Origin: Legionella sp.
GTDB lineage: Bacteria > Pseudomonadota > Gammaproteobacteria > Legionellales > Legionellaceae
Reading direction: 5' to 3'
DNA: 64,000 nucleotides
Assembly: GCA_030694525.1 (NCBI GenBank)
Contig: JAUXYG010000195.1
Span: 3,292-67,291, forward strand
A model generated the notes under the pieces. That model did no database searches. It was not told the DNA's origin and was given only the letters and a program-made list of their open reading frames with translations. Made by a program: the position numbers and the translations under genes. The number at the start of each line of letters is the position of its first letter. Position 1 is the first letter of the stretch. Shown in pieces: positions 55,320 through 64,000 of the stretch.

Positions 55320-56897
55320 TTACCCATTAGTGACGACCTTGCTTAAATTTTTTATATTTTGTTCAAAAGAGGCCGTATTAAAAATATAATTATAAAATAA
55401 TCCAAATTGCTTCTTTAGCGTCAATTCAAAATCGTTATTTTTTTGTAACTTAATAGTAACAGGCTGCTCTGGAACCCAATGGGAAAAATTATATTGCGGG
55501 TATTTGCTGTATTCAGAGAATAGCTTTATAGCGGAAATATCATGCACCAAAAGGCGAGTATCCTCATGAAATGCCTGCTTAAATAACCCCCCTAATTCAT
55601 AAAAAACTAATCCCCTTTTATGAACCCATACTACTCTTTCGAGCTCATCAGTGGCAATAAAGGTGGTATTGTTTTTGAAAACGTCGGATTGTTTAAATTG
55701 AGCAATCAATGATTTTTGATAAAACCAATCTATATTATAAAGATAATGATTGTATAGGTTTTGCACGACAAATGAAGTAACTACTAAATAAAGTAATCCG
55801 TTAGCCAGACGTTTGTTTAAAAGTGCACTTTCCATAATCAACCAATAAAGCAAAAAAGACATACCTAATGGCACAAGAATCTGGTTACGGGATGCCCAAT
55901 TATCAAGATGCGGTAATTTACCTACGGCACAATACGGAAATACGGCGATTAAAAAAAGCAAAACCCCGCTTATTAGAAAGCTTGTGCGTGTTACGATAGA
56001 TATCTTGGTATTGCTTTCAAATAAATCTTCTTTTTTAAACATCATTAATACAAGAATAAATATTAATGGCATTAAATAAAAAAAATAATACAGACTGTTT
56101 ATCGCTTGCTTTAGCGGTTCGTATAGCGATGTATAAAAGGATTGTCCTAATAAGGAGATAAGATTGAGCACATCAAAATGAAGACTATTATACCCCGCAT
56201 ATAAACCATGGGGTTGGAAGAAAGACTGTTTGATTCCAAAAAATAATAATGGGAGGCAAATAAAATCGAGATACCGGGTAATAAAGATTTTTAAAATAGT
56301 ACTCTTTTTTAAAGCAGGATTTTGCTGGTATGTTTTAATAAGAATATAAACTAAAACCACCGCATAGAACACTAATAGGGATTCAAGAGAAAAGGTTATA
56401 AAAAATATACTCAGTATAATAATTCGATTATATGTCTTTTTATTGCTATCCATATAAAGTGCAAGGAGAAAGAAAGCAAAGTAAAAAAGGAACACCGTCA
56501 GAATTGCGGGCGTATTGATCAATGCAACTCTTGCATCGTTGACTGGTGCTAAAAGGAAAAGCAATACCAGAATATACAGAGTACGTTTGTTAAAATAATT
56601 TAATTTATCAAGAATGTAATAAAGAAATATTCCGGAAAAAAAATAACTAAAGAATCCAATTAAACGGTACACATAGATACCATTTCCAATACTTTGCAGA
56701 AATACGTGAAAATGGCCCATCCACCAAAAACCAGTTTGAGAATAGATATTGAGAATGGATGCAGGATTTTGATTGACAAGAGTCCAGTCATCCCAATAAA
56801 CACCTGAATAATTTAATAATAAAAATATATTTGCGATAAAATATAAGATAAATAGGATGTGGAAGCGCGAACTTATCCATTGTTTCATTAAATTCAT
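55320..56897 (-). CDS. polytopic GT-C-like glycosyltransferase (GtrII/ArnT-like)
   Basis: YWDDW acidic motif after TM1, about 11-12 TM segments, soluble C-terminal domain. Confidence 0.6.
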   Translation of the reverse strand: MNLMKQWISSRFHILFILYFIANIFLLLNYSGVYWDDWTLVNQNPASILNIYSQTGFWWMGHFHVFLQSIGNGIYVYRLIGFFSYFFSGIFLYYILDKLNYFNKRTLYILVLLFLLAPVNDARVALINTPAILTVFLFYFAFFLLALYMDSNKKTYNRIIILSIFFITFSLESLLVFYAVVLVYILIKTYQQNPALKKSTILKIFITRYLDFICLPLLFFGIKQSFFQPHGLYAGYNSLHFDVLNLISLLGQSFYTSLYEPLKQAINSLYYFFYLMPLIFILVLMMFKKEDLFESNTKISIVTRTSFLISGVLLFLIAVFPYCAVGKLPHLDNWASRNQILVPLGMSFLLYWLIMESALLNKRLANGLLYLVVTSFVVQNLYNHYLYNIDWFYQKSLIAQFKQSDVFKNNTTFIATDELERVVWVHKRGLVFYELGGLFKQAFHEDTRLLVHDISAIKLFSEYSKYPQYNFSHWVPEQPVTIKLQKNNDFELTLKKQFGLFYNYIFNTASFEQNIKNLSKVVTNG

Positions 56898-57143
56898 TTT
56901 TAGCCTTTGATATATCCCGATACAAATAATATGGATGGGTCACTCAATAAGGAGTTAGAGATACAGGTTTGACATCCTGATTGTAGTGAAGACTCTCCAA
57001 ATGCAACGCATTATGCCTCTTGAAACAATTTATCGCTATGTTTTAATGATCTTTTCTTATTTTGGTCAGAGTGTTCCTATATTCCTTTTAAACGCGTATT
57101 CGTTTATTATACAGCCATAAAAAATATAACAAATAGATTCATA

Positions 57144-57836
57144 ATGAAGAAAGTCGCTATAGTTCAATCGAACTATATTCCATGGAAAGGTTATTTCGAT
57201 ATGATTGCGGCTGTAGATGAGTTTATTATTTTTGACCGGATGCAGTATACAAAACGCGATTGGCGAAATCGCAATCAAATAAAGACAGCGCAAGGAGTCC
57301 ACTGGTTATCTATACCTGTCTTAGTTAAAGGTAAGTATTTCCAGACCATCCAGGATACATTAATCGATGATCCAAAATGGGCTGTGGACCATTGGAAGGC
57401 AATAACCTTAAATTATCGTCGATCACCTTATTTTAATGAGATAGCAGAATGGATGGAGCCACTTTATCTTAATCAATCCTTCACCCATCTTTCTGACTTA
57501 AATCAATCGTTCCTGAATGCCATTTGTAATTTTTTGGGTATCAAAACTAAGATATCGAACTCACGAGATTATAATCTGATTGAGGGTAAGACAGAGCGCT
57601 TGCTTGATTTGTGTCTGCAAGCAGGTGGTACGCAATATATCTCTGGACCAGCTGCTAAAGACTATATTGATCCACAGTTATTCTCAGACGCTGGAGTTGA
57701 ATTATCCTGGTTTGACTACTCAGGTTATCCAGAATACCCACAACTCTGGGGCGAATTCGTCCACGGAGTCAGTATTTTAGATTTATTATTTAATTGTGGC
57801 AAAAAAGCGCCTGAATATATGAGATATGTATCCTGA
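57144..57836 (+). CDS. WbqC-family protein
   Basis: IVQSNYIPWKGYFDMI, QYTKRDWRNRNQIKT, YISGPAAKDYID, YPEYPQLWGEF, SILDLLFN. Confidence 0.9.
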   Translation: MKKVAIVQSNYIPWKGYFDMIAAVDEFIIFDRMQYTKRDWRNRNQIKTAQGVHWLSIPVLVKGKYFQTIQDTLIDDPKWAVDHWKAITLNYRRSPYFNEIAEWMEPLYLNQSFTHLSDLNQSFLNAICNFLGIKTKISNSRDYNLIEGKTERLLDLCLQAGGTQYISGPAAKDYIDPQLFSDAGVELSWFDYSGYPEYPQLWGEFVHGVSILDLLFNCGKKAPEYMRYVS

Positions 57837-58765
57837 TGAAACTATCAATAGTTGCGACACTTTATCATTCTGAGAATTATATTAATGAATTTTATGAACG
57901 TTCTACAGCGGTAGCAAAGCAGTTTGCAGTGGATGATTATGAGTTGATTTTGGTAAATGATGGTTCAGCAGATAATAGTTTGAATCTGGCCGTTGCTCTT
58001 TCTGAGAACGACCCTCATGTCGTTGTTATCGATCTGTCGCGAAATTTTGGTCATCATAATGCCATGCGGGCGGGCCTGGAACATTCACGTGGTGATTTTG
58101 TTTTTCTAATCGATAGTGATCTTGAAGAGGAGCCGGAATGGCTGCCCGATTTTTACCAACAAATGGTAGAAGATCAAGCCGACGTAATTTATGGCACCCA
58201 GGAAAAACGAAAAGGGGGATGGTTTGAGCGCTATAGCGGTGCTCTTTATTATAAAATCCTTAATTGGTTATTGAGTATTAAACATCCCAAAAATATTACT
58301 ACTGCACGGTTAATGACCCGACGGTATGTTGATGCCTTAATGCGTTATAAAGAAATTGAGACCATAATCTCATGCTTATGGGTTATCACCGGATTTAAGC
58401 AAAATGCCCAGACTGTAAAAAAACACAGTAAAAATACATCCAGTTATGGCCTCTTTAAAAAATTTAATTATTTCGTAAATACCATCACTTCGTTTAGTGC
58501 TGCCCCTTTAAAGATGATCTTCTTTTTTGGAGTGTTTATGTTCTTAATTACCATGAGTTATGCACTGTACTTAACTATTGGTCGGTTTTTTATGTACAAA
58601 CATGTTGAAGGATGGACTTCAATAATGGTATCAATTTGGGTTTTGGGTGGCATGATTATTTCCTTTATTGGCATAATTGGTATTTATTTATCAAAAATAT
58701 TCATGGAAAGTAAAGAAAGACCCTATGTAATAATCAGGAAAATATATGGAAGATCAGATGGATAA
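57836..58765 (+). CDS. GtrB/DPM1-like polyprenol-phosphate glycosyltransferase (GT2)
   Basis: VNDGSADNS, LSRNFGH, IDSDLEEEP, two C-terminal TM helices, ERPYVII. Confidence 0.88.
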   Translation: MKLSIVATLYHSENYINEFYERSTAVAKQFAVDDYELILVNDGSADNSLNLAVALSENDPHVVVIDLSRNFGHHNAMRAGLEHSRGDFVFLIDSDLEEEPEWLPDFYQQMVEDQADVIYGTQEKRKGGWFERYSGALYYKILNWLLSIKHPKNITTARLMTRRYVDALMRYKEIETIISCLWVITGFKQNAQTVKKHSKNTSSYGLFKKFNYFVNTITSFSAAPLKMIFFFGVFMFLITMSYALYLTIGRFFMYKHVEGWTSIMVSIWVLGGMIISFIGIIGIYLSKIFMESKERPYVIIRKIYGRSDG

Positions 58766-63011: not shown

Positions 63012-63789
63012 AATGATTTTACTTGAAAATACAAACTATCAACCTGTATATGAATTATATTTAAAGGAATCATTTTTTTATCCTTTGATTGCGGCAGTAT
63101 TATTACAAAAGCAAGATGGGGTCGTATTTGTCAATGATTCTGCTAATCCTACACAAATTTATGTTGAACATAGTTTTGGATTTGCACAATTGTTTGGGGT
63201 GGCGGATAACTCTTTCGAACTTAAACTTGAGCATTACCTCTTTGAAAGCAAACAGTTTACTCCTGAAAAAATTCGTTTGTACGCTCCAAAAGCCCCCGAA
63301 TTTATATTAAAACCTGATTATCAATCGTTTCAATCTCAGAGACAAAGATTTATTTTGGATCAGAAACAATTAGTTCTTGATACTCAGATTAAAGATAACA
63401 TAAATTGTGTTGCTGTTAATGAAATGAATTGTGCAACAATTGATCGGGAATTTAATGTAGTATCCCGATTTTGGCGTAATTCAGCAGATTTCATAAAAGG
63501 CTCACAAGCAGTTGTTGTTATTTACAAGAATAAAATTGCATCAATATGCTATGCAGCCGCAGAAGCCAATCATTGGGCTGAAATTGATGTCCTTACATTG
63601 CCGCATTTTCGAAATTTCGGTCTTGGCAAACATGCAGTACGGGGCTTTATCCATCGGTGCGCCGAATTATCAGTAACCCCCGTATGGGATTGCTTTACTA
63701 ATAATATGGGCTCAATGGCTCTTTGTAACTCTGTGGGATTTATTGCAGCGGATAGACCTTATTTATTTTTTACGATTCCCAAGGGCTGA
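62992..63789 (+). CDS. GNAT-family acetyltransferase
   Basis: AEIDVLTLPHFRNFGLGK, WDCFTNNMGSMALCNSVGF. Confidence 0.8.
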   Translation: MAGLPSEMILLENTNYQPVYELYLKESFFYPLIAAVLLQKQDGVVFVNDSANPTQIYVEHSFGFAQLFGVADNSFELKLEHYLFESKQFTPEKIRLYAPKAPEFILKPDYQSFQSQRQRFILDQKQLVLDTQIKDNINCVAVNEMNCATIDREFNVVSRFWRNSADFIKGSQAVVVIYKNKIASICYAAAEANHWAEIDVLTLPHFRNFGLGKHAVRGFIHRCAELSVTPVWDCFTNNMGSMALCNSVGFIAADRPYLFFTIPKG

Positions 63790-63844
63790 TCCTTTAAACA
63801 AATCGGTGATTGTTTATTTAAACAGGAAGCGATTGAATAAAAAT

Positions 63845-64000
63845 ATGAGTATAAATATGACTTATTATCACAATTTAGGATTATTTTTTATAGACGTCGC
63901 ACAGAGGCATGCTGAGAATACAGCATTGCGCTACATAGAGCAGCAATTTACTTATGCCGATTTGGACCATTGGTCCGAGCGATTAAGTACGTTTCTCTTA
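63845..64000 (+). CDS. N-terminus of an AMP-binding/adenylation enzyme (truncated by the window edge)
   Basis: Open to the end: MSINMTYYHNLGLFFIDVAQRHAENTALRYIEQQFTYADLDHWSERLSTFLL, with an A1-like TYADL. Confidence 0.7.
   Translation, partial: MSINMTYYHNLGLFFIDVAQRHAENTALRYIEQQFTYADLDHWSERLSTFLL

What the first reader, a model, noticed from the sequence alone, without database searches (positions are those of the whole stretch)
55320..64000. Gtr-like surface-modification system coupled to a carrier-protein acylation line
Seen: a GT-C-like membrane transferase divergent from a tightly coupled operon of WbqC, GtrB-like GT2, two methyltransferases, a propeller protein, acyltransferase, ACP, FabG-like SDR, GNAT and an adenylating enzyme (cut off). 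Known: GtrB/GtrII and ArnC/ArnT load a sugar on undecaprenyl phosphate and transfer it in the periplasm; WbqC accompanies N-glycyl amino sugars; adenylation enzyme plus ACP supply acyl or aminoacyl groups. Inference: an undescribed pathway that builds a methylated, N-acylated sugar and attaches it after polymerisation to LPS, lipid A or protein, separately from the main O-antigen locus.
Basis: partly seen in the sequence, partly recalled or inferred. Interest (0 to 1): 0.75.

Follow-up and report, generated by a model that had tools for sequence, protein, structure and literature searches.

The report
Lipid-carrier acylated amino-sugar decoration operon
An uncultured Legionella carries a 15-gene locus that most likely builds an unusual acylated, methylated amino-deoxy sugar, loads it on the membrane lipid carrier, flips it outward and attaches it to a surface glycan; the scheme is known, but this widespread gene cassette, its sugar and its attaching enzyme family have not been studied.

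Summary
The contig beyond the window holds the two genes it said to look for, a GtrA flippase and a WecE-type aminotransferase, plus RmlB and RmlA. The 525-aa membrane protein has no Pfam or NCBIfam hit. It folds confidently (pLDDT 92.7), and its only meaningful structural neighbours are GT-C glycosyltransferases (STT3, AglB, ArnT, AftA). An invariant Asp-Asp follows the first membrane helix. Homologues sit beside GtrB-like GT2 and GtrA genes with different sugar pathways, as expected of a Gtr-type three-component system. The block from WbqC to WecE, carrier-protein line included, is not special to Legionella. It recurs at 40-77% identity in 41 loci from alpha-, beta-, gamma- and deltaproteobacteria, paired with at least four unrelated membrane transferases. 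The adenylating enzyme is an NRPS-type amino-acid activator, so the acyl group is probably amino-acid-derived. Its identity and the acceptor are unknown. Precedents are Xanthomonas wxc region 3 and the extracytoplasmic LOS-IV cap of Mycobacterium marinum. This scan has met the shorter WbqC/GT2/WecE cassette before on other DNA. Verdict: interpretation supported; a new variant of a known kind; moderate interest.

The parts
55320..56897 (-). 525-aa GT-C-like membrane glycosyltransferase candidate (P0001), transcribed divergently from the operon. About 11 TM helices, 'GVYWDDW' loop after TM1, C-terminal alpha/beta domain (about 386-525) predicted to face the periplasm.
   Evidence: No Pfam or NCBIfam hit. 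AF2 pLDDT 92.7, pTM 0.92. The top 10 Foldseek PDB hits are all GT-C. D36 is invariant in 140/140 diverse homologues and D37 is kept in 131/140. The family has 2580 representative clusters.
56898..57143 (.). 246-nt divergent intergenic region between the GT-C-like gene and wbqC; presumed bidirectional promoter region.
   Evidence: Sequence. The promoter scan gives no more sites than chance and there is no Rfam hit, so no regulatory element is shown.
57144..57836 (+). WbqC-family protein, 230 aa; function unknown.
   Evidence: PF08889, E 5e-83. About 70% identical in Pseudomonas, Bordetella and Herbaspirillum. No PDB relative by sequence or profile. Fold search inconclusive.
57836..58765 (+). 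GtrB/ArnC-type GT2, 309 aa: predicted polyprenyl-phosphate sugar synthase. DSD at residues 93-95; two C-terminal TM helices (219-249, 259-292).
   Evidence: Full-length match to GtrB sll0501 (5ekp, E 1e-47) and ArnC structures (E 1e-33 to 1e-28). NCBIfam PgfS and ArnC hits. TM helices.
58746..59447 (+). Class I SAM methyltransferase MT1, 233 aa.
   Evidence: Methyltransf_11/25/31. Conserved at 58-94% identity in 34 of 41 long-cassette loci.
59444..60406 (+). Class I SAM methyltransferase MT2, 320 aa, UbiE-like with a Cys-rich N-terminus.
   Evidence: Ubie_methyltran and Methyltransf_25. Travels with MT1.
60403..61371 (+). GH130-like five-bladed beta-propeller protein, 322 aa, with no signal peptide; role unknown.
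   Evidence: The 22-sequence profile hits GH130 beta-1,2-mannoside phosphorylases at E 6e-10 and 2e-7. The N-terminus has no hydrophobic leader. Also present in the short cassette of B. bronchialis (36% identity).
61368..62039 (+). NeuD/PglB/VioB-family left-handed beta-helix (LbH) N-acyltransferase, 223 aa: predicted to acylate N4 of the dTDP-4-amino sugar.
   Evidence: TIGR03570 at 156.3 bits (cut-off 160.8). The closest structures all act on 4-amino sugars: PglB-ATD, PerB, PglD, VioB. Only about 30% identical to the LbH of short cassettes.
62042..62281 (+). 79-aa carrier protein (PP-binding) with the phosphopantetheine serine in 'SWDSL'.
   Evidence: PF00550; sequence.
62271..63011 (+). FabG-like classical SDR, 246 aa.
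   Evidence: adh_short, E 4e-44. PRK08217 3-ketoacyl-ACP reductase subfamily, E 2e-62, below cut-off.
62992..63789 (+). GNAT acyltransferase, 265 aa (PF12746 type); used here as the marker of the carrier-protein module.
   Evidence: PF12746, E 1e-19. 41 related loci in genome contigs.
63743..64000 (+). Start of the stand-alone NRPS-type adenylation enzyme, cut by the window end. The likely true start is the ATG at 63845, giving 518 aa like its orthologues.

THE OPERON CONTINUES BEYOND THE WINDOW on the same strand. Locus L002 = contig C110:56000-75726; window coordinate = L002 coordinate + 52708.
- L002:11035-12693: the A domain.
- L002:12690-13094: GtrA flippase, 134 aa.
- L002:13145-14293: WecE-type dTDP-4-amino-4,6-dideoxyhexose transaminase, 382 aa.
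- L002:14306-15382: RmlB.
- L002:15379-16257: RmlA, the last gene.
- A 383-nt spacer follows, then a convergent extra pgi copy at L002:16641-18092 (-).
   Evidence: A domain: AMP-binding, E 1e-70. DltA subfamily and amino-acid-adenylation-domain models. Best PDB match is the second A domain of LgrA; 'FDNS' Asp and 'NGKVDR' Lys are kept. Start.
GtrA: PF04138, E 7e-17.
WecE: TIGR02379 at 598.6 bits and NF008687 at 589.9 bits. RmlB: TIGR01181 at 494 bits. RmlA: TIGR01207 at 497 bits. All are above their cut-offs.
Junctions: -4, +50, +12 and -4 nt.

Best explanation
The locus is a Gtr-type three-component periplasmic glycosylation system joined to its own donor-sugar factory.

Proposed steps (shown = enzyme identity supported by family cut-offs, structure matches or gene linkage; inferred = everything about chemistry):
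1. RmlA and RmlB make dTDP-4-keto-6-deoxyglucose. The WecE-type transaminase makes dTDP-4-amino-4,6-dideoxyhexose (Fuc4N by the best-scoring model; Qui4N is not excluded).
2. A stand-alone NRPS-type adenylation enzyme loads a small alpha-amino acid on the 79-aa carrier protein. The GNAT and the FabG-like SDR tailor it there. The NeuD/PglB/VioB-type acyltransferase moves the finished acyl group to N4 of the sugar. The two methyltransferases add methyl groups to the acyl group or the sugar. The steps catalysed by WbqC and the GH130-like propeller are unknown.
3. The GtrB/ArnC-type GT2 transfers the sugar to undecaprenyl phosphate.
4. GtrA flips it across the inner membrane.
5. The divergently encoded GT-C-like protein uses its Asp-Asp loop to transfer the sugar to an envelope acceptor. 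That acceptor is most likely an LPS O-antigen or core glycan.

The biosynthetic block is a mobile cassette shared with many Proteobacteria. The membrane transferase is the interchangeable, acceptor-specific part.
For: - Enzyme identities: RmlA, RmlB and WecE score above curated cut-offs. The GT2 aligns over its full length, membrane hairpin included, with GtrB and ArnC structures. GtrA matches PF04138.
- GT-C assignment: the AF2 model has pLDDT 92.7. The ten best PDB fold matches are all GT-C enzymes with probability 0.57-0.99, against <=0.12 for the transporters that follow. D36 is invariant, and D37, W38 and R337 are nearly so, across 143 homologues that share only 26-39% identity. K/R-rich loops place the Asp-Asp loop and the C-terminal domain outside (sequence, helices).
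- Triad linkage: homologues of the membrane protein lie next to GT2 and GtrA in L. adelaidensis and in four metagenome loci, twice as overlapping GtrA-GT2-GT-C. The GT2 stays 54-76% identical where the sugar module is dTDP-4-amino. It drops to 24-29% where the sugar module differs: the CDP/TPP-enzyme loci and L. adelaidensis.
- Carrier line: DltA-like and amino-acid-adenylation models match, the alpha-amino-binding Asp and the catalytic Lys are kept, and the best PDB match is an NRPS A domain. The carrier serine is present. The own genome has no MBOAT, so the carrier must feed a cytoplasmic transferase.
- Cassette conservation with varying membrane partners.
- Published precedents: wxcK and wxcN mutants of X. 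campestris lose the FucNAc branch (PMC4878081). M. marinum wecE, mmar_2318 and mmar_2319 are needed for LOS-IV, whose pyrrolidone-acylated dideoxygalactose is added after export (PMC4703794, PMC12507525). Three-component systems are reviewed in PMC11127046.
Against: - Nothing here is biochemical.
- The fold match to GT-C is remote (TM-score 0.29-0.38, E >= 0.017), and no sequence or profile method links the protein to any described GT-C family.
- L. antarctica has the cluster without an adjacent GtrA.
- L. quinlivanii has the whole biosynthetic block with GtrA but no recognisable GT-C nearby; it has AT3 and MBOAT genes instead.
- In two homologue loci (P0035 and G337) no GT2 or GtrA partner was seen next to the membrane gene.
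- Amino-acid specificity could not be read from the binding-pocket residues.
- The roles of WbqC and the propeller are unassigned.
- The acceptor is unknown.
Confidence: 0.7

Rival explanations
1. Arn-like lipid A modification. The N-acyl group is only a transient protecting group, as with formyl in ArnA/ArnD or acetyl in Francisella NaxD. It is removed on the lipid carrier, and a cationic 4-amino-4,6-dideoxyhexose is put on lipid A phosphates to resist cationic peptides.
For: - The GT2 is ArnC-like.
- Short-form cassettes use an ArnE/F-like flippase.
- D-Fuc4N is the 6-deoxyhexose counterpart of L-Ara4N (own chemical knowledge).
- WbqC has no assigned function and could be a deacylase.
Against: - No ArnD/NaxD-type deacetylase and no ArnA is present.
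- A five-enzyme line to build an elaborate acyl group is hard to reconcile with a throw-away protecting group.
- The membrane transferase is replaced by unrelated families from locus to locus. That fits variable glycan acceptors better than the conserved lipid A.
- The genome has a separate ArnT/PMT_2-type GT-C elsewhere.
Confidence: 0.08
2. Ordinary cytoplasmic O-unit synthesis. The cluster only supplies a dTDP-sugar, the GT2 is a conventional glycosyltransferase acting on an Und-PP-linked repeat unit, and the 525-aa membrane protein is a polymerase, ligase or transporter.
For: - The locus lies in a genome region with other polysaccharide genes (first-reader notes seen; not verified by me).
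- Some homologues of the membrane protein sit in polysaccharide loci with no GT2 or GtrA seen alongside.
Against: - The GT2 matches GtrB and ArnC over its full length, including the C-terminal membrane hairpin.
- GtrA is inside the operon.
- There is no Wzx, Wzy, Wzz or initiating phosphoglycosyltransferase in the operon.
- The membrane protein's fold neighbours are GT-C enzymes, not transporters.
Confidence: 0.07
3. The carrier-protein line is a separate Dlt/Alm-type system. The aminoacyl group is not put on the nucleotide sugar but is esterified or amidated onto an envelope molecule. The sugar itself carries only an acetyl group from the LbH enzyme.
For: - The adenylating enzyme's best full-length family model is DltA.
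- L. quinlivanii has an MBOAT (DltB-like) gene about 3 kb from its copy of the cassette.
- V. cholerae AlmEFG shows that such lines can modify LPS (own knowledge).
Against: - The window's genome has no MBOAT at all.
- The carrier genes are translationally coupled between the LbH acyltransferase and gtrA.
- They co-occur with WbqC, GT2 and WecE in nearly all 41 loci.
- The LbH of long cassettes is a distinct subgroup, about 30% identical to the short-cassette LbH, as expected if its acyl donor differs.
Confidence: 0.08
4. Same machinery, but the acceptor is a protein (O- or N-glycosylation of a periplasmic or surface protein) or another non-LPS polymer.
For: - The best NCBIfam model for the GT2 is PgfS, from the streptococcal Pgf protein-glycosylation system.
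- The top structural neighbours of the membrane protein are oligosaccharyltransferases.
Against: - The PgfS score is far below its cut-off (180 against 500 bits).
- The structural similarity is at superfamily level only.
- Most characterised Gram-negative three-component systems act on LPS (PMC11127046).
Confidence: 0.07

Closest known systems
Gtr three-component O-antigen modification systems (GtrA/GtrB/Gtr-type GT-C of Shigella, Salmonella and their phages; Klebsiella GmlABC; Citrobacter pentofuranose systems)
   Same: - A GtrB-type Und-P sugar synthase with a C-terminal TM hairpin.
- A GtrA flippase.
- A polytopic transferase with an acidic motif in the first periplasmic loop.
- The transferase is the variable part.
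   Different: - The donor is not glucose, galactose or a pentofuranose. It is a dTDP-derived, N-acylated, probably methylated 4-amino-4,6-dideoxyhexose, and its whole synthesis is encoded in the operon.
- The transferase belongs to no described family.
Arn pathway (ArnB, ArnA, ArnC, ArnD, ArnE/F, ArnT) for L-Ara4N on lipid A
   Same: - A DegT-family 4-aminotransferase.
- N-acylation before transfer.
- An ArnC-like GT2.
- A small flippase.
- A GT-C-type final transferase.
   Different: - The substrate is a dTDP-6-deoxyhexose, not a UDP-pentose.
- There is no ArnA and no ArnD.
- The transferase is not an ArnT/PMT-family member.
- The acyl group is elaborate and probably retained.
Xanthomonas campestris pv. 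campestris wxc region 3 (wxcK to wxcO)
   Same: Genetic evidence that a dTDP-derived N-acetyl amino-dideoxyhexose side branch depends on an aminotransferase (wxcK) and a small membrane protein (wxcN) (PMC4878081).
   Different: - FucNAc with a plain acetyl group.
- As far as I could see from the paper, no WbqC, carrier-protein line or methyltransferases.
- Homology to the genes here was not tested.
[quoted passage not shown]
   Same: - The sugar is a 4-amino-4,6-dideoxygalactose with an unusual pyrrolidone N-acyl group.
- It requires wecE, a transmembrane protein and a conserved hypothetical protein (PMC4703794).
- It is added outside the cytoplasm after LOS-III export (PMC12507525).
   Different: - The acceptor is a trehalose-based glycolipid of a mycobacterium.
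- I could not test sequence homology of its genes to this cluster; an earlier scan note claims a WbqC gene there.
- The genes for the acyl group are unknown.
Dlt (DltA/DltC/DltB/DltD) and V. cholerae AlmEFG aminoacyl-carrier lines
   Same: A stand-alone DltA-like adenylation enzyme plus a small carrier protein, dedicated to envelope modification.
   Different: - There is no MBOAT or AlmG-type partner in this genome.
- The acyl group is predicted to be handed to a nucleotide sugar by an LbH acyltransferase in the cytoplasm.
Pseudomonas syringae flagellin 'modified viosamine' island and V. cholerae O1 tetronate genes RfbK-O (both from my own knowledge, not checked here)
   Same: A carrier protein, a reductase and an LbH-type acyltransferase (plus a methyltransferase in P. 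syringae) that build an N-acyl 4-amino-4,6-dideoxy sugar.
   Different: - Those sugars are used by cytoplasmic glycosyltransferases, not by a lipid-monophosphate carrier route.
- The acyl units there are keto-acid or fatty-acid derived, not amino-acid derived.

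Membership tests
Gtr-type three-component periplasmic glycosylation system | Polyprenyl-phosphate glycosyltransferase of the GtrB/ArnC/DPMS type (GT2 catalytic domain plus a C-terminal TM pair) | tested here: met
   Full-length alignment to GtrB 5ekp (E 1e-47) and to ArnC structures. TM helices at 219-249 and 259-292, DSD motif.
Gtr-type three-component periplasmic glycosylation system | Small flippase (GtrA family or ArnE/F) linked to the GT2 | tested here: met
   PF04138, E 7e-17, in the same operon with a 4-nt overlap with the upstream gene.
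Gtr-type three-component periplasmic glycosylation system | GT-C-fold transferase with a catalytic acidic residue in the first extracytoplasmic loop | tested here: met
   Met at fold level only. The top 10 PDB fold matches are all GT-C (probability 0.57-0.99, TM-score 0.29-0.38). Invariant D36 and near-invariant D37 follow TM1.
Gtr-type three-component periplasmic glycosylation system | The three genes are linked across genomes | tested here: met
   GT2 and GtrA lie within 10 kb of the homologue in 5 of 8 independent loci read (the window, L. adelaidensis, P0005, P0027, P0021), with overlapping GtrA-GT2-GT-C in two of them. P0003 and L. antarctica have an adjacent GT2 but no GtrA in the stretch read. 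P0035 has neither.
Gtr-type three-component periplasmic glycosylation system | An Und-P-sugar intermediate and transfer at the periplasmic face | not testable with these tools
   Needs lipid LC-MS and mutant glycan analysis.
Described GT-C sequence families (PMT, PMT_2/ArnT, STT3, YfhO, Glyco_transf_22 and others) | Match to a curated family model | tested here: not met
   No Pfam or NCBIfam hit for P0001 or for 10 diverse homologues. The profile finds no PDB sequence.
Arn pathway | ArnA (UDP-GlcA decarboxylase/formyltransferase), ArnD deformylase and an ArnT-family transferase | tested here: not met
   None of these families is found in the operon. The aminotransferase scores as WecE (590-599 bits), not ArnB (204 bits against a cut-off of 631).
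dTDP-4-amino-4,6-dideoxyhexose pathway (RmlA, RmlB, WecE/VioA) | All three enzymes above curated equivalog or subfamily cut-offs | tested here: met
   TIGR01207 at 497 bits, TIGR01181 at 494, TIGR02379 at 599 and NF008687 at 590, all above cut-off. C4 stereochemistry (galacto or gluco) cannot be settled from sequence.
Widespread WbqC/GT2/WecE/LbH lipid-carrier cassette (uncharacterised) | WbqC immediately upstream of, and coupled to, a GT2 of >=50% identity, with a WecE-type transaminase, an LbH acyltransferase and a flippase | tested here: met
   P. koreensis and B. bronchialis operons: WbqC 71-73%, GT2 57%, WecE 69-75% identity. Same order in 41 long-form loci.
Dlt/Alm-type aminoacyl carrier systems | DltA-like adenylation enzyme plus a small carrier protein | tested here: met
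   NF003417 DltA subfamily, E 2e-96 (below cut-off); TIGR01733 at 308 bits against a cut-off of 317. PP-binding with the DSL serine.
Dlt/Alm-type aminoacyl carrier systems | Membrane acyltransferase partner (MBOAT DltB, or an AlmG-type enzyme) | tested here: not met
   No MBOAT anywhere in the 99.8%-complete genome. AlmG-type enzymes were not searched.

The most novel reading that the evidence does not exclude
The carrier-protein line makes a hydroxy-methyl-5-oxoprolyl ('pyrrolidone') acyl group. In this reading:
1. The adenylating enzyme loads L-threonine.
2. The GNAT N-acetylates it.
3. The FabG-like SDR oxidises the 3-hydroxyl to a beta-keto thioester.
4. An intramolecular aldol closes the ring, perhaps helped by WbqC or the propeller.
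5. The two methyltransferases C-methylate it.
6. The LbH enzyme puts it on N4 of the sugar.

This would reveal the so far unknown biosynthesis of the acyl groups seen on M. marinum LOS-IV and on several Vibrio and Plesiomonas O-antigens (structures listed in PMC10609480). It would also name the gene set that predicts them in genomes.
Probability: 0.15. Interest if true: 0.7.

Novelty: new variant of a known kind. Interest (0 to 1): 0.5.

Why it matters
Non-pneumophila Legionella LPS is poorly known, and surface glycans shape serotype, amoeba and phage interactions and immune recognition. More generally, three points follow.

1. The work defines a large membrane-protein family, 2580 representative clusters with no Pfam model, as probable GT-C glycosyltransferases with an invariant Asp-Asp.
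2. A 10-12-gene cassette that includes an NRPS-like amino-acid line is spread across Proteobacteria. It is always tied to a lipid-monophosphate carrier route, a route known so far mostly for simple sugars.
3. The cassette gives a concrete, testable gene set for the exotic amino-acid-derived N-acyl groups long known from O-antigen chemistry. I found no published gene assignment for these groups.

Several cultivable, harmless hosts carry the cassette (Variovorax, Neorhizobium, Pleomorphomonas, Bosea), so it can be tested directly.

Tried and rejected
- Sequence and profile searches of the membrane protein against Pfam, NCBIfam and PDB sequences found nothing. Only fold comparison was informative.
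- My first impression that its family is tiny and Legionella-specific was wrong. It rested on 37 clusters, 10 of 151 Legionellaceae genomes and 1 other gammaproteobacterial genome among 399 scored besides the window's own. An exhaustive HMM search finds 2580 representative clusters.
- Profile-profile comparison with the membrane proteins that occupy the same position in Pseudomonas, Bordetella, Tatlockia and other cassettes showed no homology. I therefore do not claim they are one family, only that they share layout and an aromatic-D-[DE] motif after TM1.
- WbqC: the AF2 model was moderate (pLDDT 83.5 for one model, 49-61 for the other four). The fold search was inconclusive, with weak hits to nucleotide-binding alpha/beta domains at probability <0.55. 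No PDB relative was found by sequence or profile. I assign no function.
- A-domain specificity: hand-read pocket residues (D-N-F-F-I-G-V-C-I-K, from the alignment plus a remembered GrsA numbering) match no standard code. I draw no conclusion beyond 'alpha-amino acid, probably small'.
- The idea of a conserved ampG-pgi hot-spot is rejected. The two genes are far apart in three of the four other complete genomes checked, and about 15 kb apart in G115.
- Promoter and terminator scans were at chance level, and there is no Rfam element.
- The E. coli O-antigen review gives no genes for the aminoacyl-Qui4N groups.
They are now described under the last in-window part.

Full report
OBSERVATION

The window is bases 3292-67291 of a 75.7-kb contig (C110) of a 3.2-Mb, 99.8%-complete genome. 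The closest named relatives of its proteins are Legionella species, and a 96%-identical copy of the locus lies in a 'Legionellaceae bacterium UBA2794' MAG.

- a 525-aa polytopic membrane protein on the minus strand (55320-56897);
- a 246-nt divergent spacer;
- then, on the plus strand: WbqC, a GT2, two class I methyltransferases, a beta-propeller protein, a left-handed beta-helix (LbH) acyltransferase, a 79-aa carrier protein, a FabG-like SDR, a PF12746-type GNAT, and the start of an adenylating enzyme.

The junctions are overlaps of 1-20 nt or a 2-nt gap.

I read the rest of the contig (L002). The operon goes on with the remainder of the adenylating enzyme, then a GtrA-family flippase (4-nt overlap), a WecE-type transaminase, RmlB and RmlA. 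It ends 383 nt before a convergent pgi gene.

THE THREE-COMPONENT CORE

The GT2 aligns from end to end with the crystal structure of GtrB (sll0501, E 1e-47) and with three ArnC structures (E 1e-33 to 1e-28). It has the DxD motif and the two C-terminal membrane helices typical of polyprenyl-phosphate glycosyltransferases. GtrA is a clear PF04138 member.

The membrane protein has no hit in Pfam, NCBIfam or PDB sequences, even with a 33-sequence profile. AlphaFold2 with that alignment gives a very confident model (pLDDT 92.7, pTM 0.92). Its ten best Foldseek matches in the PDB are all GT-C enzymes: human and yeast STT3, archaeal AglB, ArnT and AftA. Their probabilities are 0.57-0.99. The unrelated transporters that follow have probabilities of 0.12 or less. 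The similarity is remote (TM-score 0.29-0.38), so this is a superfamily-level assignment.

Directly after the first membrane helix lies 'GVYWDDW', where GT-C enzymes carry their catalytic acidic residues. In 143 homologues that share only 26-39% identity with it:
- D36 is kept in all 140 that cover the position;
- D37 is kept in 131 and W38 in 126;
- R337, Y322 and P118 are also practically invariant.

Lys/Arg-rich loops alternate so that the N-terminus is cytoplasmic. The Asp-Asp loop, the conserved 325-341 loop and the C-terminal alpha/beta domain face the periplasm. This is my reading of the sequence with the helices.

LINKAGE IN OTHER GENOMES

The word-indexed search found only 37 homologous clusters, mostly Legionella. 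The protein was found in 10 of 151 Legionellaceae genomes and in 1 other gammaproteobacterial genome among 399 scored besides the window's own. An exhaustive profile search corrected the impression of a tiny family: there are 2580 representative clusters at E <= 1e-3, 1481 of them at E <= 1e-30 and full length. None of ten diverse members has a Pfam family on its membrane part.

The neighbourhoods I could read:

| Locus | Identity to the membrane protein | What lies next to the homologue |
|---|---|---|
| L. antarctica; metagenome P0003 | 48% and 64% | Same operon as here, from WbqC to the A domain, in the same divergent layout |
| Metagenome P0005 | 52% | GT2 (54%), GtrA, two other methyltransferases, WecE, RmlB, RmlA; no WbqC, LbH or carrier line |
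| L. adelaidensis | 41% | A different sugar module (C-methyltransferase, oxidoreductase) with a GT2 and GtrA |
| Metagenomes P0027 and P0021 | 36-38% | Overlapping GtrA-GT2-homologue after a CDP-sugar/thiamine-diphosphate-enzyme module |

The GT2 is 54-76% identical where the sugar module is dTDP-4-amino. It is only 24-29% identical in the three loci with a different sugar module. So the GT2 follows the sugar while the membrane protein family is shared. That is the logic of a donor-specific lipid loader and a separate periplasmic transferase.

Exceptions:
- One homologue stands alone beside IS fragments.
- One, in another gammaproteobacterial family, lies in a perosamine-like locus without a recognisable GT2 or GtrA.
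- L. antarctica has no GtrA next to its cluster, though it has a second GT2-GtrA pair elsewhere.

THE BIOSYNTHETIC BLOCK IS A WIDESPREAD CASSETTE

WbqC is unusually conserved, at about 70% identity to proteins of Pseudomonas, Bordetella, Herbaspirillum and Stutzerimonas.

In P. koreensis and B. bronchialis it sits in a compact operon:
- an unannotated 526-601-aa membrane protein;
- WbqC (71-73%);
- GT2 (57%);
- a methyltransferase;
- an LbH acetyltransferase (about 30%);
- in Bordetella, a homologue of the propeller (36%);
- an ArnE/F-like or GtrA flippase;
- WecE (69-75%).

Using the GNAT as a marker for the carrier-protein module, I found 41 loci in species-representative genomes. The hosts are Legionellaceae, Gallionella, Thiomargarita, Methylococcaceae, Syntrophobacteraceae, Desulfarculales, Desulfovibrionaceae, Neorhizobium, Pleomorphomonas, Bosea, Microvirga, Sneathiella, Dongia, Rhodoferax, Hydrogenophaga, Variovorax, Pseudomonas and Bdellovibrionota.

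In most loci long enough to judge, the block WbqC-GT2-MT1-MT2-propeller-LbH-carrier-SDR-GNAT-A domain-flippase-WecE is present at 40-77% identity per gene. WbqC or WecE was missing from the stretch read in about a quarter of them. The Desulfovibrio-type loci lack the two methyltransferases.

The membrane gene that overlaps the start of wbqC falls into at least four sequence types with different motifs after TM1:
- 'GFSLWDEGFLW';
- 'YGIDFTDE[GS]FY';
- 'PYMDEGFYAYW';
- the Legionella 'YWDDW';
- a fifth candidate is a 603-aa protein in Tatlockia.

Profile comparisons detect no homology between these types. L. quinlivanii has the whole block with GtrA but no such protein nearby. It has AT3 and MBOAT acyltransferase genes instead.

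So the Legionella locus is one long-form copy of a mobile cassette, combined with one of several interchangeable membrane transferases. Notes from earlier runs of this scan describe the short cassette on other DNA and reached similar readings.

WHAT THE SUGAR IS

RmlA, RmlB and the transaminase all score above curated cut-offs. The transaminase best fits WecE (dTDP-4-amino-4,6-dideoxygalactose, 590 bits against a cut-off of 375) and the WecE/VioA subfamily model. The sugar is therefore a 4-amino-4,6-dideoxyhexose, and the C4 configuration is not settled.

The LbH enzyme scores just under the cut-off of the NeuD/PglB/VioB family model (156.3 against 160.8 bits). Its nearest structures all acylate a 4-amino group of a nucleotide sugar.

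The adenylating enzyme is not a fatty-acyl ligase:
- It fits the DltA subfamily and the NRPS amino-acid-adenylation model (308 bits against a cut-off of 317).
- Its best PDB match is the second A domain of LgrA, which by my memory of linear gramicidin activates glycine.
- It keeps the Asp of 'FDxS' that binds a substrate alpha-amino group, and the C-terminal catalytic Lys.
- Its pocket residues, read by hand, match no standard code.

The carrier protein has its serine. The genome has no MBOAT, so a Dlt-like trans-membrane route is unavailable. The carrier-bound product must therefore be used in the cytoplasm, most simply by the adjacent LbH enzyme. That enzyme forms a subgroup distinct from the short-cassette acetyltransferases.

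Documented N-acyl groups on such sugars include N-(3-hydroxybutanoyl)-D-alanyl on Qui4N, and several methylated hydroxy-5-oxoprolyl groups on Qui3N, Fuc3N and viosamine (table in PMC10609480). Either type would use an amino-acid activator, an N-acyltransferase and an oxidoreductase. The second type would also use C-methyltransferases.

I propose, as an untested idea, a route from threonine:
1. N-acetylation of carrier-bound threonine.
2. Oxidation of the 3-hydroxyl.
3. Aldol ring closure to 3-hydroxy-3-methyl-5-oxoproline.

The roles of WbqC and of the GH130-like propeller are unknown. WbqC has no structural relative. The propeller profile matches GH130 at E 6e-10.

COMPARISON WITH WHAT IS KNOWN

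The three-component principle is well established for glucose, galactose, GlcNAc, Ara4N, GalN and pentofuranoses (PMC11127046 and references there).

For amino-dideoxyhexoses there is genetic evidence from two organisms:
- X. campestris wxcK and wxcN mutants lose the FucNAc branch of the O-antigen (PMC4878081).
- M. marinum wecE, mmar_2318 and the membrane protein mmar_2319 are needed for LOS-IV (PMC4703794). Its pyrrolidone-substituted dideoxygalactose is added only after export of LOS-III (PMC12507525).

I found no biochemical description of the WbqC cassette, its carrier-protein line or any of its membrane transferases. WbqC appears in the searchable literature only as an annotation, for example 'putative glycine transferase' in Shewanella (PMC7253198; also PMC5507510).

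The locus fails the membership tests for the Arn pathway (no ArnA, ArnD or ArnT) and for Dlt/Alm systems (no membrane acyltransferase partner).

VERDICT

The locus is a new variant of a known kind. It has a known mechanism with an uncharacterised donor sugar, an uncharacterised and large GT-C-like family, and an NRPS-like tailoring line. It is one copy of a cassette that this scan has already met in shorter form elsewhere.

The acceptor, the acyl group, the sites of methylation and the functions of two conserved proteins are open.

Noticed in passing
beyond the window: L002:16641-18092 (-) (contig C110:72640-74091); genome contig C129:12206-13513: The pgi gene next to the operon is a second copy; the genome has another pgi on contig C129. 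L. antarctica keeps only a decayed remnant of the cluster-linked copy beside its cluster (75% identity, one internal stop), plus an intact pgi elsewhere. pgi also flanks the locus in the P0003 metagenome contig, L. adelaidensis and G115. An extra pgi seems to travel with these glycan loci.
   Followed up: partly
beyond the window: L002:16306-16606 (spacer between rmlA and pgi): Two direct copies of a 62-nt element (85% identical, 129 nt apart), plus a 30-nt inverted arm. The element has at least 23 copies across the genome's contigs, so it is a dispersed REP/MITE-like intergenic repeat.
   Followed up: partly
L025:1-11626 and L027:1-11584 (metagenome contigs with homologues P0027 and P0021): Homologues of the membrane transferase follow overlapping GtrA-GT2 genes. 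Upstream lies a CDP-sugar pathway with a thiamine-diphosphate enzyme, DegT-like enzymes and epimerases/reductases. This is the gene content expected for a branched-chain sugar of the yersiniose type. From memory, yersiniose A was reported chemically in the LPS of Legionella micdadei and L. maceachernii. It suggests that such sugars may also be delivered by a lipid-monophosphate carrier.
   Followed up: no
L030:472-4614 (L. quinlivanii, contig NZ_MVJN01000003.1): In L. quinlivanii the full cassette, ending in gtrA, is followed by an AT3 acyltransferase (452 aa) and an MBOAT (520 aa), not by a GT-C-like gene. A second GtrA and another AT3 lie upstream. This may be a different way of using or further decorating the same sugar.
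   Followed up: partly
window 53275-55311: Directly upstream of the GT-C-like gene are an FKBP-type peptidyl-prolyl isomerase with the Mip-like N-terminal domain (88% identical in L. antarctica) and an AmpG muropeptide permease. They are conserved housekeeping neighbours and are not part of the cassette.
   Followed up: no
genome contigs C74:10971-11312, C21:6669-7028, C95:8828-9310: The same genome has two further GtrA-family genes and one ArnT/PMT_2-type GT-C gene elsewhere, so it probably runs more than one lipid-carrier glycosylation system.
   Followed up: no
P0269 (722 aa; representative-library hit to the GT-C-like profile): One family member carries a C-terminal Fib_succ_major domain (PF09603, E 9e-30) after the GT-C-like part. 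This is an extracytoplasmic add-on that might bind the acceptor.
   Followed up: no
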